From a virus, in UHGV virus genome UHGV-0420230: DNA of 42,537 nucleotides, one strand, 5' to 3'. Positions 2,559 to 31,320 of the stretch are shown in pieces. The translations under genes were made by a program, and so were the position numbers. Under the pieces are notes generated by a model that saw only the letters and a list, made by a program, of their open reading frames with translations, was not told where the DNA came from and did no database searches. Position 1 is the stretch's first letter. Each line of letters starts with the position of its first letter.

Positions 2559-3799
2559 TGTTCTTTTCGGGATTATTTCAACGAAAAAGTGACGCACCGG
2601 TGACCACGCCAGCAGAGCTGGTGGATGCTATCGGGCTGTCATACGACACCTATACCGGAAAGCAGATCAGCAGCCAGAGGGCCATGCGACTGACGGCGGT
2701 TTTTTCCTGCGTCAGGGTGCTGGCGGAGTCGGTCGGGATGTTGCCCTGCAACCTGTATCACCTGAACGGCAGCCTGAAGCAGAGAGCCACTGGCGAACGT
2801 CTGCATAAGCTGATCTCCACGCATCCCAATGGCTATATGACGCCGCAGGAGTTCTGGGAGCTGGTGGTCACCTGTCTGTGCCTGCGGGGAAACTTTTACG
2901 CCTACAAAGTGAAAGCATTTGGCGAAGTGGCTGAACTGCTGCCCGTCGATCCCGGCTGTGTGGTACCGAAGCTTAACAGTAGCTGGGAGCCGGTCTATCA
3001 GGTCACATTCCCGGATGGCTCCACGGATGTACTGAGCCAGGAGGATATCTGGCATGTGCGCACGCTGACGCTGGACGGACTGGTGGGGCTGAATCCCGTC
3101 GCCTATGCCCGCGAGGCAATATCGCTGGCGGCAGCGACCGAAGAGCACGGGGCCAGACTGTTCAGCAATGGCGCGGTGACGTCGGGTGTGTTGCGTACAG
3201 AGCAGACGCTGTCAGATCAGGCTTATGAGCGCCTGAAGAAAGATTTTGAGGAGCGTCACACCGGGCTTGGCAATGCTCACCGCCCGATGATCCTTGAGAT
3301 GGGGCTGGACTGGAAGTCGATGGCGCTGAACGCCGAGGACAGCCAGTTCCTGGAAACCCGCAAGTTTCAGCTTGAAGAAATCTGTCGTCTGTTCCGTGTG
3401 CCATTGCACATGGTGCAGAACACCGATCGCGCCACCTTCAACAATATCGAAGAGCTGGGGCTGGGATTTATCAACTATTCACTGGTGCCGTATCTGACCC
3501 GCATTGAGCAGCGGATCAACACCGGACTGGTACGAAAAAGTAAGCAGGGCGTTTATTACGCCAAATTTAACGCCGGGGCGTTACTGCGCGGGGATATGAA
3601 GTCCCGTTTTGAAGCCTACGCCACCGGGATTAACTGGGGAATTTACTCTCCCAATGACTGCCGCGACCTGGAAGATATGAATCCGCGTCCCGGTGGGGAT
3701 GTCTATCTCACACCGATGAACATGACCACGAAACCCTCCGATGGCAGTAAAGCCGGTAAGCAGAAGGATAACGCCAATGCAGACGAAACAACGTCTTGA
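2558..3799 (+). CDS. portal protein (HK97 family)
   Basis: 413 aa in the canonical position after the large terminase; GTG start with GGAGG upstream; portal-like sequence. Confidence 0.8.
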   Translation: MFFSGLFQRKSDAPVTTPAELVDAIGLSYDTYTGKQISSQRAMRLTAVFSCVRVLAESVGMLPCNLYHLNGSLKQRATGERLHKLISTHPNGYMTPQEFWELVVTCLCLRGNFYAYKVKAFGEVAELLPVDPGCVVPKLNSSWEPVYQVTFPDGSTDVLSQEDIWHVRTLTLDGLVGLNPVAYAREAISLAAATEEHGARLFSNGAVTSGVLRTEQTLSDQAYERLKKDFEERHTGLGNAHRPMILEMGLDWKSMALNAEDSQFLETRKFQLEEICRLFRVPLHMVQNTDRATFNNIEELGLGFINYSLVPYLTRIEQRINTGLVRKSKQGVYYAKFNAGALLRGDMKSRFEAYATGINWGIYSPNDCRDLEDMNPRPGGDVYLTPMNMTTKPSDGSKAGKQKDNANADETTS

Positions 3800-29091: not shown

Positions 29092-29510
29092 ATCGACCCT
29101 GCAAGGTCGGTTGGTTTATCCACAAAACAGAGAAGAACACCTGCGGTGGCTGCCGCCCGGATGGATTGGGTTATGAGCCCGTCGTCCGGTGATGCTCTTC
29201 TCTGTTTTGTAAAAAGGACGGTACCAGCCGGAAGCAATGGTACAAGCTGGTACCGCCAGGACTACACACAGCATAAAGTTGTGGTGCCGGGTGCCTCCCG
29301 GTGCCTGGCGAAGGTTGCACACCAGGCGGGTGGGTATCCACAGAAGGTCGACTGTCAGCCTCAACCTTAACCCGCGTGCGCTGAGCCGCATTCACCACAA
29401 CGCTAAGGATTCTCTCTGGTTGAAAATACTTAGCTGTTATGTGCCTGTCTTTTCACCACTTCAGGCTCGGTGGTATCCTTTTAAGTCCGTATACATAAAA
29501 GGAAAATCAA
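29092..29510. other. GC-rich structured non-coding region
   Basis: About 420 bp without an RBS-led ORF, short ORFs overlapping in several frames; 14-bp perfect inverted repeat 29122-29135 / 29187-29200 and 9-bp perfect inverted repeat 29220-29228 / 29246-29254. Confidence 0.4.
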
Positions 29511-29756
29511 ATGACTTTTGATGAAAAAGAACTTGATAATGCAATTAATAAAATCATCGTAACGTCGCTCTTTTCCTGTCTCAGCGACACTCAGCAGAAA
29601 CAGTTCTACGAATCGGCTTTCAACATGATCGAGCGTTGTTGTTTCTGCGATGCCGACGAGCTACCTGAAAAAATCAGGAAACAGTTGGCTGATGCTCTTC
29701 GAGTGCGACTTTCTGACCAATTTTCTGAAATGTACTCTCCGAATTTGGACAAATAG
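29511..29756 (+). CDS. hypothetical protein (plus-strand gene embedded in the leftward operon)
   Basis: 81 aa; AAGGA RBS 8 nt upstream; hairpin just after the stop. Confidence 0.45.
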   Translation: MTFDEKELDNAINKIIVTSLFSCLSDTQQKQFYESAFNMIERCCFCDADELPEKIRKQLADALRVRLSDQFSEMYSPNLDK

Positions 29757-29949
29757 AAAAAGGCCATTTCCATTCAGGGTCTGATGGAAATACTTCAGCC
29801 TGTTCCAAAGCACGGCGTAAAGAGAATACAACTCCAGCCATAATCTGATGTTTCCCATTGGTCCAGCTATCGCCGCTCTGATCTACAGGAGCGGCTATGT
29901 CGTATGACCAAACGACTTCACCACTATTGTTTAAAATCTGGACTTTCAT
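29674..29949 (-). pseudogene. duplicated 5' copy (first 59 codons) of the downstream zinc-finger gene with a different, possibly non-functional C-terminus
   Basis: Start, RBS and 59 codons lie within the 198-bp perfect repeat; the divergent C-terminal 32 codons overlap the convergent plus-strand ORF. Confidence 0.35.
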
Positions 29950-29970
29950 TTTGTTCTTTAACCTCCAGAT
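29773..29970. repeat. 198-bp perfect direct repeat, copy 1
   Basis: Identical to 30162-30359 (offset 389 bp), verified base by base. Confidence 0.9.
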
Positions 29971-30338
29971 TTCCGCGCATCTAAAGGCGCATTCTCATTT
30001 GGTGTGAACTGAATAGTTGTGCTGATATTGATTAATGCCTCGACACTCAAGACTACGCACTCAGAGCAGATAGCAACTTCATCTTTTCCGCCTTTGGCGA
30101 TGATTTTTTTTGCCTGCAGCTCGTTTGCGCCACAAAACGAGCATGTGAAATAACGGTTCATTTCAGGGTCTGATGGAAATACTTCAGCCTGTTCCAAAGC
30201 ACGGCGTAAAGAGAATACAACTCCAGCCATAATCTGATGTTTCCCATTGGTCCAGCTATCGCCGCTCTGATCTACAGGAGCGGCTATGTCGTATGACCAA
30301 ACGACTTCACCACTATTGTTTAAAATCTGGACTTTCAT
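29958..30338 (-). CDS. protein with C-terminal ClpX-type C4 zinc finger
   Basis: FTCSFCGANELQAKKIIAKGGKDEVAICSECV resembles the ClpX N-terminal zinc-binding domain; GGAGG RBS; first gene after pL. Confidence 0.65.
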   Translation of the reverse strand: MKVQILNNSGEVVWSYDIAAPVDQSGDSWTNGKHQIMAGVVFSLRRALEQAEVFPSDPEMNRYFTCSFCGANELQAKKIIAKGGKDEVAICSECVVLSVEALINISTTIQFTPNENAPLDARKSGG

Positions 30339-30359
30339 TTTGTTCTTTAACCTCCAGAT
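30162..30359. repeat. 198-bp perfect direct repeat, copy 2
   Basis: Identical to 29773-29970. Confidence 0.9.
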
Positions 30360-30456
30360 ACGGGCGTTTAATGGCCCCGCCGAACAGCTCTTTTCCGCAA
30401 TAGCTGCAATGTCTTTCGCGCATCAGCCTGCGCATTCACCACAACTCTAAAAACAA

Positions 30457-30509
30457 ATGTAGGATATCCAACATGTGAGTGTCAAGAGTTTATGTTGGTT
30501 ATCATACAT
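30457..30509 (-). promoter_or_regulatory. OL-type operator sites and leftward early promoter (pL-like)
   Basis: 18-bp palindromes ATGTAGGATATCCAACAT (30457-30474) and ATGTTGGTTATCATACAT (30492-30509); minus-strand TTGACA (plus 30480-30485) with 17-bp spacer. Confidence 0.55.
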
Positions 30510-30523
30510 AAAAAGATAGGCTC

Positions 30524-30551
30524 ATAAAAAAACCGGGGATACCCCGGTTTT
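30524..30551 (-). terminator. rho-independent terminator downstream of the repressor gene
   Basis: Hairpin AACCGGGG-ATA-CCCCGGTT with a 7-T run on the minus strand. Confidence 0.7.
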
Positions 30552-30571: not shown

Positions 30572-31225
30572 TCAAAAATCCATTATTACTTGTTTGACAA
30601 GACCAACTATTCTGCAGTTCTCACCGCATTCAATAGTTTTATAGTTAGGATTTAGTGGGACGAGATACCTGTTCGGCCAGTCCTCAACAAATTTTTTGAG
30701 TGTCGCTTCTTGCCCACCATTGATATGGGCAACAACGATTTTTCCGTTAATACACTCTGTATCAATAATATCTGGCTCTACGATAACGATAGAACCTTCT
30801 GGTATCGATGGTGAGCCGAGGGGATTGGTCATTGAATCACCACGGACCCGTAGTGCAAATGCCATTTCTGATACAAGGGCGGTAGTATAAACCCACTCTT
30901 CAGCATCTTCTTTCCTGACACCAGGCTCCGTCATTGTCCATGAACCCGCCTGAACCCACGAGATGAGGGGGACTTTTTTAACTGCGAATATTTCAGGTTT
31001 TAGATTTATCTTTGGTTCAGGCGAGCCTTTTCCGCTAACAAGCCACAGAGGATCGCATTTAAGTGCGTTGGCTAGGGCTTGAAGGTTGGCTCCATTTGGT
31101 TGGTAGTCGTCCTTTTCCCATCCAGTAACCGTGACACGGTTCACACCAGTCAAATCAGCCAGTGCTTGTTGTGTCAGGTTCAGTTCTTTTCGCCTTTGGC
31201 GAATACGATCACTCATGTTCATCAT
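30572..31225 (-). CDS. CI-like repressor (HTH plus S24 LexA-like peptidase domain)
   Basis: N-terminal HTH (LTQQALADLTGVNRVTVTGWE); C-terminal RGDSM...K motif of self-cleaving repressors; divergent from the Cro-like gene. Confidence 0.85.
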   Translation of the reverse strand: MMNMSDRIRQRRKELNLTQQALADLTGVNRVTVTGWEKDDYQPNGANLQALANALKCDPLWLVSGKGSPEPKINLKPEIFAVKKVPLISWVQAGSWTMTEPGVRKEDAEEWVYTTALVSEMAFALRVRGDSMTNPLGSPSIPEGSIVIVEPDIIDTECINGKIVVAHINGGQEATLKKFVEDWPNRYLVPLNPNYKTIECGENCRIVGLVKQVIMDF

Positions 31226-31288
31226 GTAGGCAATCCTACCACATGCCCATGTAGGATTCTTGACATTGGTATGTTGGATATCCTACAT
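31224..31288 (+). promoter_or_regulatory. OR-type tripartite operator with rightward early promoter (pR-like)
   Basis: Three related palindromes at 31224-31241, 31248-31265 and 31271-31288 (the last exactly the reverse complement of OL1), spaced 23-24 bp; TTGACA 31260-31265. Confidence 0.6.
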
Positions 31289-31320
31289 TTCTGCTTAACG
31301 TAATTTAACGGGAGACAGAA

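What the first reader, a model, noticed from the sequence alone, without database searches (positions are those of the whole stretch)
29958..30338. First gene after pL encodes a protein with a ClpX-like zinc-binding domain
Seen: the C-terminal FTCSFCGANELQAKKIIAKGGKDEVAICSECV closely mimics the N-terminal zinc-binding domain of ClpX, fused to a 59-aa N-terminal domain of unknown function. Inference: it could compete with or mimic the ClpX substrate/adaptor-binding domain and so interfere with host ClpXP proteolysis, a pathway known to degrade some phage proteins.
Basis: partly seen in the sequence, partly recalled or inferred. Interest (0 to 1): 0.4.

Follow-up and report, generated by a model that had tools for sequence, protein, structure and literature searches.

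The report
Rearranged prophage gene with ClpX-like zinc domain
The ClpX-like zinc-binding domain is real, but the 126-residue "fusion protein" is a rare recombination chimera: the first 59 codons of the next gene joined in frame to a complete 67-residue stand-alone gene that many enterobacterial prophages carry just after pL and whose function nobody has tested.

Summary
The ORF at 29958..30338 (minus strand) does carry a ClpX-type C4 zinc-binding domain. It scores 39.7 bits against Pfam PF06689 (cut-off 27), and its closest solved relatives are E. coli ClpX ZBD structures.

The "59-aa N-terminal domain" is not a separate domain. It is an exact copy of codons 1-59 of the next gene downstream (SfV orf33 family, 29674..29949). 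The copy was made by a 389-bp duplication-like rearrangement flanked by 203-nt direct repeats. The closest phages (vB_EcoM-720R4, SKA5, SfV) lack this segment.

Residue M60 is the native start codon of a 67-aa stand-alone protein that NCBI annotates as "ClpX C4-type zinc finger protein" (WP_001083098.1). In E. coli, Salmonella and Citrobacter prophages, homologues always sit directly downstream of the cI-type repressor as the first gene after pL.

The fusion junction is absent from 5,426 complete E. coli genomes, IMG/VR and the GTDB representatives. I found it in only one other assembly.

The copy in this window has Ser at a position that is Cys in all 18 other sequences compared, E. coli ClpX included.

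Interference with ClpXP, as a decoy for the ClpX N-domain, is plausible but remains inference. The papers library held no functional study.

This is a known domain in an annotated but uncharacterised gene family, in a rare chimeric form.

The parts
30572..31225 (-). cI-type repressor (HTH_3 + Peptidase_S24), 217 aa
   Evidence: Pfam; PHROG transcriptional repressor
30526..30551 (-). GC-rich hairpin followed by a T-run directly after cI (AAACCGGGGTATCCCCGGTTTTTTT); likely the terminator of the repressor transcript
   Evidence: read from the sequence; the same layout in the native locus L003
30456..30485 (-). pL: TTGACA-18 nt-TACATT; shares ATGTTGGATATCCTACATT with pR (31260-31289, + strand)
30360..30448 (-). 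89-nt 5' fragment of a conserved non-coding pL-leader element related to sRNA STnc100. The 40-aa ORF at 30313..30435 lies in it and is probably not a gene
   Evidence: (same 89 nt in about 780 E. coli records, continuing into non-coding sequence)
30157..30359 (-). Direct repeat, upstream copy: last 13 nt of a ZBD gene, the orf33 ribosome-binding site (GGAGGT) and orf33 codons 1-59
29958..30338 (-). Chimeric ORF, 126 aa (the finding): orf33 residues 1-59 fused in frame to the complete 67-aa ZBD gene
29958..30161 (-). Stand-alone ZBD gene proper (67 aa, starts MNRYFTCSFCG at residue 60 of the chimera); 97% identical to WP_001083098.1, with C39S and G41E
30027..30149 (-). ClpX-type zinc-binding domain (residues 64-104 of the chimera; Cys 66, 69, 91, 94, then a helix)
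29768..29970 (-). Direct repeat, downstream copy: 3' end of the ZBD gene, the ribosome-binding site and orf33 codons 1-59
29674..29949 (-). Intact orf33-family gene (91 aa, phrog_3195; SfV orf33), the source of the duplicated 59 codons
29511..29756 (+). 81-aa ORF (phrog_3311) that overlaps the 3' end of orf33 on the opposite strand; annotated in place of orf33 in some genomes
29208..29431 (-). Complete STnc100-like element (Rfam RF02076, 42.4 bits, below the gathering score of 47, E = 3e-7), which bounds the inserted cassette on the downstream side

Best explanation
Shown: The 126-aa ORF is a recent in-frame chimera of two independent early-left genes of an SfV-like temperate phage. In the native arrangement the order is repressor, terminator, pL, a 67-aa stand-alone ClpX-ZBD-like gene, and then the orf33-family gene. 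The stop codon of the ZBD gene lies inside the ribosome-binding site of orf33. In this window a 389-bp unit running from the ZBD ATG to orf33 codon 59 is effectively present one and a half times. As a result, orf33 codon 59 (GAA) abuts the ZBD start codon, with only 2 nt of microhomology. The chimera is therefore translated from the orf33 ribosome-binding site, and the ZBD start codon has lost its own leader. An intact orf33 follows.

Inferred: The functional unit is the ZBD gene. Its family keeps the four zinc ligands, the helix that follows them, and the ClpX pocket residue F16. It sits behind a repressor-controlled pL, so it should be made early after infection or induction. Its most likely action is as a free, probably dimeric, copy of the ClpX N-domain. 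Such a copy could titrate substrates and adaptors that need that domain (lambda-O-like replication proteins, MuA-type substrates, FtsZ, SspB, RssB), or it could pair with ClpX N-domains. Either way it would shift what ClpXP degrades during early lytic growth. This would be analogous in logic to lambda CIII acting on FtsH.

In this phage the ZBD carries a 59-residue truncated extension and a C39S change, so it may be altered or weakened.

My confidence in the anatomy and origin is about 0.9. My confidence in the ClpX-decoy function is about 0.35.
For: Chimera:
- A 203-nt direct repeat with 389-nt spacing, identical over 198 nt.
- The 389-bp segment is absent from 720R4, SKA5 and SfV, which are otherwise 98-99% identical.
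- The N-terminal 59 aa equal those of the downstream 91-aa ORF, which matches phrog_3195 over its full length at 8e-64.
- Every database homologue of the ZBD part starts at MNxY(Y/F)TCSFCG, which is residue 60 here.
- The native locus L003 shows ZBD followed by orf33, with a different leader before the ATG.
- No homologue covers more than 71% of the chimera among 5.8 billion proteins, and the exact protein is not on record.
- The junction is absent from 5,426 E. coli genomes, where the two halves always lie about 390 bp apart in native order, and from IMG/VR and GTDB representatives.
- The junction is present in one other assembly, L016, with one substitution.

Family and position:
- Pfam, PDB sequence and fold matches to ClpX.
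- Homologues in Salmonella (over 13,000 index blocks), Citrobacter and metagenomes are all directly downstream of an HTH_3 + Peptidase_S24 repressor and co-oriented with it, while the downstream genes differ.
- C7, F9 (ClpX F16), C10, A22, I31, C32 and C35 are invariant.

Background:
- The ClpX ZBD dimer binds lambda O, SspB, RssB and trigger factor through a hydrophobic pocket that includes F16 and I46 (PMC7804408).
- The N-domain is needed for FtsZ, MuA and adaptors, but not for the ssrA tag (PMC5415555).
Against: - No experiment or paper links this family to ClpXP.
- Pocket conservation is only partial. ClpX I46 corresponds to A, T, V, K or M in the family, ClpX Y34 corresponds to Ala, and there is a 3-residue insertion between the two CxxC motifs.
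- Closely related viable phages (SfV, 720R4, SKA5) lack the gene, so it is dispensable. Only 4 of 50,697 phage records carry a homologue.
- Identity to E. coli ClpX ZBD is only about 31-36%.
- The AlphaFold models are of low confidence (pLDDT 50 and 45).
- A ZBD-like treble-clef dimer is also used by the anti-sigma factor CsfB, which has no link to ClpX (PMC5890618).
Confidence: 0.6

Rival explanations
1. The ZBD-like protein has nothing to do with ClpXP. It is a small zinc-ribbon dimer that binds another partner, such as RNA polymerase, a sigma factor or nucleic acid. It would then be an early regulator, comparable to the CsfB anti-sigma factor or to small zinc-binding phage proteins that bind RNA polymerase.
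For: CsfB has a treble-clef dimer like the ClpX N-domain but a different function (PMC5890618). The gene occupies the position that N holds in lambda, as the first gene after pL, in every context examined. Surface residues of the ClpX pocket are only partly conserved. Many non-ClpX proteins carry one to four ZBD copies.
Against: Sequence similarity is specifically to ClpX ZBD, above the Pfam gathering score and with ClpX as the only PDB and NCBIfam matches, whereas CsfB resembles ClpX only at the level of fold. F16, the key pocket residue, is invariant. The gene is absent from closely related viable phages, so it is not an essential regulator.
Confidence: 0.25
2. The chimera is non-functional debris. 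The rearrangement removed the ZBD gene's own leader, attached a truncated and probably unfolded 59-residue piece, and the copy is decaying. The only working gene here is the intact orf33 downstream.
For: Both differences from the common allele are non-synonymous. One of them (C39S) hits a position that is Cys in all 18 other sequences, including ClpX C43. The arrangement is found in only one other assembly. The 59-aa part lacks the conserved C-terminal third of its family, W-x-W-P-F-S-I...V-A-L-E-E. The 203-nt repeats make the segment prone to deletion, and the exact deletion product exists as 720R4 and SKA5.
Against: The reading frame is open through both parts in two assemblies. All four zinc ligands and the other invariant residues are intact. 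A ClpX ZBD with Met in place of C43 was crystallised (2ds7 sequence), so this position tolerates change. Tandem-ZBD proteins show that the domain tolerates N-terminal extensions. Two substitutions are too few to show relaxed selection.
Confidence: 0.2
3. One reading: the 126-aa protein is a genuine two-domain protein in which the N-terminal 59 residues supply a function, such as target binding, coupled to the ZBD.
For: The fusion is in frame, uses a good ribosome-binding site (GGAGGT) and is kept in two assemblies. In native loci the ZBD and orf33 genes are adjacent, and their stop codon and ribosome-binding site overlap, which could reflect a functional link.
Against: No homologue has this architecture among 5.8 billion clustered proteins. 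The junction is absent from all large collections searched. ZBD genes occur without orf33 in Salmonella and Citrobacter, and orf33 occurs without ZBD in SfV and 720R4. The N-terminal part is a truncated copy of a gene that is still present intact next door.
Confidence: 0.07
4. The tandem structure is an assembly artefact.
For: Repeats and co-resident related prophages do exist; for example strain CT02 carries both parental arrangements. Such situations can confuse assemblers.
Against: The junction between orf33 codon 59 and the ZBD ATG shares only 2 nt, so it is not a repeat-mediated join. A second assembly (GCA_012663145.1) has the same structure and differs from the window by one substitution and one indel over 6.2 kb.
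Confidence: 0.03

Closest known systems
N-terminal zinc-binding domain of ClpX (Pfam PF06689; PDB 1OVX, 2DS5-2DS8)
   Same: It has a C4 zinc site, a CSFCG motif and a helix after the second CxxC. F16, A29 and I35 equivalents are invariant. The Pfam score is above the cut-off. The only matches by sequence in the PDB, and the two best by fold, are ClpX.
   Different: There is no AAA+ module. There are three extra residues between the CxxC pairs. Identity to E. coli ClpX is about 31-36%. Pocket positions Y34 and I46 are not conserved. A short variable tail takes the place of the ClpX linker.
Stand-alone prophage 'ClpX C4-type zinc finger protein' (WP_001083098.1 and relatives; phrog_5259, phrog_20296)
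   Same: Residues 60-126 are 97% identical to it. The position directly after the repressor and pL is the same, and so is the downstream neighbour orf33.
   Different: Here the gene has lost its own leader, is read as part of a longer ORF with 59 extra N-terminal residues, and carries C39S and G41E.
SfV orf33 family (phrog_3195)
   Same: Residues 1-59 of the chimera are identical to the intact copy downstream and 97-98% identical to SfV orf33, and the ribosome-binding site is the same.
   Different: The chimera lacks the conserved C-terminal 32 residues of the family.
Phage-encoded modulators of host proteases: lambda CIII (FtsH), lambda RexB (reported to protect lambda O from ClpP-dependent degradation), T4 PinA (Lon). 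These are cited from my own knowledge and were not checked here
   Same: They are small accessory proteins encoded in or next to the immunity/early-left region that change which proteins a host ATP-dependent protease degrades. This is the logic proposed for the ZBD protein.
   Different: There is no sequence or fold relationship. None of them copies a domain of the protease itself. The function of the ZBD protein is untested.
Bacillus subtilis anti-sigma factor CsfB (Gin)
   Same: It is a small stand-alone protein with a dimeric treble-clef zinc domain that most resembles the ClpX N-domain (PMC5890618).
   Different: CsfB resembles ClpX only in fold (about 20% identity). The phage protein matches the ClpX family by sequence. 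The hosts and genomic contexts differ.

Membership tests
ClpX-type zinc-binding domain (Pfam PF06689 zf-C4_ClpX) | Profile score above the curated gathering threshold | tested here: met
   39.7 bits against a cut-off of 27, E = 4.6e-10, residues 65-100. Homologues score 26-63 bits.
ClpX-type zinc-binding domain (Pfam PF06689 zf-C4_ClpX) | Four Cys zinc ligands in two CxxC pairs | tested here: met
   C66, C69, C91 and C94 are present and invariant in the family. The spacing is x21, against x18 in E. coli ClpX.
ClpX-type zinc-binding domain (Pfam PF06689 zf-C4_ClpX) | Treble-clef fold with a C-terminal helix | tested here: inconclusive
   The model shows strands followed by helix 92-108 and superposes on 2ds5_A at 1.7 A over 41 columns. 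However, the model's mean pLDDT is only 50 and the Foldseek E-values are 0.014-0.11.
ClpX-type zinc-binding domain (Pfam PF06689 zf-C4_ClpX) | Zinc binding and homodimerisation | not testable with these tools
   This needs metal analysis and SEC or NMR. No multimer prediction was available.
ClpX-type zinc-binding domain (Pfam PF06689 zf-C4_ClpX) | Hydrophobic pocket that binds adaptors and substrates (ClpX F16, I46; PMC7804408) | tested here: inconclusive
   The F16 equivalent is invariant. The I46 equivalent is Ala here and varies in the family (A/T/V/K/M/I/L). The Y34 equivalent is Ala.
ClpX unfoldase itself | AAA+ ATPase module following the ZBD | tested here: not met
   The protein ends 22 residues after the ZBD helix. 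NCBIfam ClpX models match only positions 5-43 and score 22.8 bits against a cut-off of 359.
Stand-alone prophage ZBD protein (WP_001083098.1 cluster) | Full-length identity of the 67-aa unit | tested here: met
   65 of 67 residues are identical, and it falls in the same 90% cluster of 126 member sequences.
Stand-alone prophage ZBD protein (WP_001083098.1 cluster) | First gene after pL, directly downstream of a cI-type repressor and co-oriented with it | tested here: met
   Seen in the window and in homologues in E. coli, Salmonella, Citrobacter and metagenomes.
Stand-alone prophage ZBD protein (WP_001083098.1 cluster) | Own start codon at MNxY(Y/F)TCSFCG with its own leader | tested here: not met
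   The ATG is retained, but it is internal to the 126-aa ORF and is preceded by orf33 coding sequence with no Shine-Dalgarno-like motif.
Stand-alone prophage ZBD protein (WP_001083098.1 cluster) | Cys four residues after the last zinc ligand (ClpX C43) | tested here: not met
   It is Ser here and Cys in all 18 other sequences, including ClpX.
SfV orf33 family (phrog_3195) | Conserved C-terminal block W60-x-W-P-F-S-I ... V-A-L-E-E | tested here: not met
   The block is absent from the chimera and present in the intact copy at 29674..29949.
Phage-encoded inhibitors or modulators of host AAA+ proteases | Demonstrated change in substrate degradation by the target protease | not testable with these tools
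   The papers library held no study of this family.

The most novel reading that the evidence does not exclude
The 67-aa family is a class of prophage early proteins that copy the substrate- and adaptor-docking domain of ClpX. They would act as decoys or as poison subunits for ClpX N-domain dimers. This would selectively protect phage proteins or host regulators (a lambda-O-type initiator, RpoS via RssB, FtsZ, antitoxins) from ClpXP in the first minutes after induction. It would be a protease-domain mimic not described for any phage. The chimera in this window would then be a natural variant expressed from a stronger ribosome-binding site.
Probability: 0.3. Interest if true: 0.6.

Novelty: new member of a known kind. 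Interest (0 to 1): 0.35.

Why it matters
ClpXP controls the stability of phage replication and transposition proteins, RpoS, FtsZ and several antitoxins. A phage-made copy of the ClpX docking domain would be a simple way to retune all of these at once.

The family is very common in Salmonella Typhimurium and is present in a few percent of E. coli genomes, yet nobody has tested what it does.

For this particular window the practical message is narrower. The apparent two-domain protein should not be read as a designed fusion. Any experiment should use the 67-aa unit, with the common allele as reference.

The locus is also a clear example of how mosaic junctions and short duplications in the pL leader create new open reading frames.

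Tried and rejected
1. I first took the 40-aa ORF between pL and the chimera (MRRLMRERHCSYCGKE...) for the remnant of a second ZBD gene, because of its CSYCGK motif. I rejected this. The same 89 nt occur in about 780 E. coli records and continue there into non-coding, STnc100-related sequence, including on a P1-like plasmid next to tRNA genes.

2. The structure predictions of the chimera and of orf33 gave low confidence (pLDDT 50 and 45). They cannot show whether the 59-aa piece folds on its own. Only the ZBD part gave a usable PDB match.

3. PADLOC (defence systems) gave no hit for ZBD, orf33, the 81-aa ORF or the longer homologues. Pfam found no second domain in the longer homologues.

4. Four literature searches for a characterised phage ZBD protein or a phage ClpX inhibitor found nothing specific. 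Thibault et al. 2006 (PMC1693814) is not held in the library.

5. A functional pairing of ZBD with orf33 was considered, because the stop codon and ribosome-binding site overlap. It is not supported, because each gene occurs without the other.

6. An assembly artefact was considered and rejected.

7. I could not decide between two origins for the chimera. One is a tandem duplication of the 389-bp unit followed by homologous exchange with a 720R4-type phage. The other is a single illegitimate recombination between two prophages. It is equally open whether 720R4 and SKA5 are deletion products of this arrangement.

Full report
**1. What is at the coordinates**

The minus-strand ORF at 29958..30338 encodes 126 aa. 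Residues 65-100 match Pfam zf-C4_ClpX (PF06689) at E = 4.6e-10 and 39.7 bits, above the curated cut-off of 27.

The last 67 residues match the E. coli ClpX zinc-binding-domain structures 2ds5, 2ds7 and 1ovx by sequence. The E-value is about 0.003 and the alignment covers ClpX residues 11-43. NCBIfam ClpX models match only at their N-terminus.

The four zinc ligands are present (C66, C69, C91, C94). There are three more residues between the CxxC pairs than in E. coli ClpX.

An AlphaFold model of the whole ORF is poor (mean pLDDT 50). Even so, its two best PDB matches are ClpX, and the ZBD part superposes on 2ds5_A at 1.7 A over 41 columns.

**2. The setting**

The window is an SfV-like temperate phage. 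The nearest records are Escherichia phages vB_EcoM-720R4 and SKA5 (99%) and Shigella phage SfV (98%).

Upstream lies a cI-type repressor at 30572..31225 (HTH_3 + Peptidase_S24). After it come a hairpin with a T-run and a promoter, TTGACA-18-TACATT, at 30485..30456. The promoter shares the 19-mer ATGTTGGATATCCTACATT with the divergent pR at 31260..31289. It is therefore an operator-controlled pL. Downstream are yfdP, yfdQ (DUF2303) and yfdR homologues.

**3. The "59-aa N-terminal domain" is a duplicate of the next gene**

The ORF list shows a second ORF at 29674..29949 (91 aa) whose first 59 residues are identical to those of the 126-aa ORF.

The cause is a 203-nt direct repeat at 29768-29970 and 30157-30359, with start-to-start spacing of 389 nt. 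The two copies are identical over 198 nt.

The 91-aa ORF matches phrog_3195 end to end (8e-64) and corresponds to SfV orf33. The 126-aa ORF matches phrog_3195 with its N-terminal part and the 70-aa phrog_5259 with residues 57-126.

An alignment with 720R4 and SfV shows that exactly 389 bp are missing from those phages: one repeat copy plus 186 unique nt that encode the ZBD.

**4. Residue 60 is the native start of a stand-alone gene**

Among 5.8 billion clustered proteins, no homologue covers more than 71% of the chimera. Hits are either orf33-family proteins or small PF06689 proteins. Every one of the latter begins at MNxY(Y/F)TCSFCG, which is residue 60 here.

In E. coli UPEC 26-1 the order is LexA-family repressor, terminator, pL, a 67-aa "ClpX C4-type zinc finger protein" (WP_001083098.1), and then orf33. 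The ZBD stop codon lies inside the GGAGGT ribosome-binding site of orf33.

In the window, orf33 codon 59 (GAA) is followed directly by this ATG. The native leader (...gtgtaagagagcgcaaATG) has been replaced, and only the dinucleotide AA is shared at the join.

In native loci the two halves of the junction lie about 390 bp apart, which is the repeat period. This is what a tandem duplication of the unit from the ZBD ATG to orf33 codon 59 would produce. The upstream boundary of the first repeat copy is the one seen in 720R4 and SKA5.

The history therefore also involved exchange with a phage of that type, or else 720R4 and SKA5 are deletion products. Strain CT02 carries both parental arrangements as separate prophages. 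I could not decide between these routes.

**5. How rare the chimera is**

- The exact 126-aa protein is not on record.
- The 32-nt junction is absent from IMG/VR viral contigs and from GTDB species representatives.
- No complete E. coli genome among 5,426 has it contiguously.
- The window's 67-aa allele occurs on a single public contig (GCA_012663145.1). That contig is 99.97% identical to the window over 6.2 kb and has the same chimera with one substitution (T30A) in the upstream copy. The gene caller there started the gene at M60.

Two assemblies with a non-homologous junction argue against an assembly artefact.

**6. The ZBD family**

Homologues in Salmonella (112 aa, listed in more than 13,000 index blocks), in Citrobacter (120 aa) and in metagenomes (121 aa) all lie directly downstream of an HTH_3 + Peptidase_S24 repressor and are co-oriented with it. 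The immunity types and the downstream genes differ (YfdP/DUF2303 or RdgC).

These loci lack orf33, and SfV and 720R4 have orf33 without the ZBD gene. The two genes are therefore independent.

An exhaustive HMMER search gave 83 hits at E below 0.001. About a dozen of the 50%-identity clusters are small proteins with an N-terminal ZBD, and there are also unrelated proteins with two to four tandem ZBDs.

Only 4 of 50,697 phage records carry a homologue.

In an alignment of 18 stand-alone proteins plus E. coli ClpX, the invariant residues are C7, F9 (ClpX F16), C10, A22 (A29), I31 (I35), C32 and C35. C39 (ClpX C43) is Cys in every sequence except the window's own, where it is Ser.

The window's gene differs from the common allele at two nucleotides. 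Both changes are non-synonymous (C39S, G41E).

No additional domain or defence-system match was found.

**7. How it most likely works**

Shown:
- the domain identity;
- the position behind a repressor-controlled promoter;
- the chimeric origin;
- loss of the native leader.

Established background:
- The ClpX ZBD is an independent dimer.
- Its hydrophobic pocket (F16, I46) binds lambda O, SspB, RssB and trigger factor (PMC7804408).
- The N-domain is needed for FtsZ, MuA and adaptors, but not for ssrA-tagged substrates (PMC5415555).

Inference: a free ZBD made early after induction would compete for these partners, or pair with ClpX N-domains, and so change what ClpXP degrades. The logic is that of lambda CIII acting on FtsH (my own knowledge). 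I put this at about 0.35.

The main rival is a partner unrelated to ClpX, as with the CsfB anti-sigma factor, whose fold most resembles the ClpX N-domain (PMC5890618).

In this window the protein would be translated from the orf33 ribosome-binding site with a 59-residue extension. That extension lacks the conserved C-terminal block of its family. Together with C39S, this leaves open whether this copy is fully functional.

**8. Comparison and verdict**

The domain is a member of PF06689. The 67-aa unit belongs to an annotated but uncharacterised prophage protein family. The protein is not a ClpX, because it has no AAA+ module.

No paper on the family's function was found.

The assumed architecture is a by-product of rearrangement, and the proposed function remains an untested but reasonable hypothesis.

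Interest is moderate. The novelty class is a new member of a known kind.

Noticed in passing
window 30360-30448 (-) and 29208-29431 (-): The 89 nt just after the pL start are the 5' part of a conserved non-coding element found in about 780 E. coli records, including P1-like plasmids next to tRNA genes. A complete, divergent copy lies 1 kb downstream. It matches Rfam STnc100 (RF02076) at 42.4 bits, below the gathering score of 47, with E = 3e-7. The two copies share a 20-nt 5' end (TTAGMGTTGTGGTGAATGCG at 30450-30431 and 29406-29387). The ZBD/orf33/81-aa-ORF cassette therefore sits between a fragment and a full copy of a pL-leader RNA element. A 2026 preprint relates STnc100 to the prophage sRNA PasD.
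   Followed up: partly
window 29511-29756 (+) versus 29674-29949 (-): An 81-aa ORF (phrog_3311, 3e-55) overlaps the last 83 nt of orf33 on the opposite strand. RefSeq annotates one or the other in different genomes (L003 against L004). The C-terminus of orf33 is conserved in 66-68% identical homologues, so orf33 looks like real coding sequence. Whether the 81-aa ORF is also a gene was not tested.
   Followed up: no
L004 (E. coli 1332KP) 3157-3378 (-): In this prophage and about nine similar records, the ZBD gene is followed by a divergent orf33-like paralogue (32% identity over 74 aa) before the ordinary orf33. The annotation instead calls a + strand ORF there.
   Followed up: no
Database proteins P0004, P0007, P0008, P0016: Several database proteins are other chimeras from this locus. 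One is orf33 residues 1-66 fused to the C-terminus of YfdQ. Others are the ZBD fused to an out-of-frame stretch of yfdQ or reading into the orf33 ribosome-binding-site region. The pL-proximal region appears to be a hotspot for deletions and fusions.
   Followed up: no
E. coli CT02, NZ_CP081698.1, at about 3.72 Mb and 4.38 Mb: One strain carries both parental arrangements as two prophages: the native ZBD-orf33 order, and the 720R4-type junction of the leader fragment to orf33. This is the kind of co-residence that would allow the recombination seen in the window.
   Followed up: no
Proteins P0033, P0042, P0044 and P0031: Many uncharacterised proteins consist of two to four tandem ClpX-type ZBDs (100-250 aa), and one 2,505-aa protein has 13 matching stretches. 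None has an AAA+ module. Their function is unknown.
   Followed up: no
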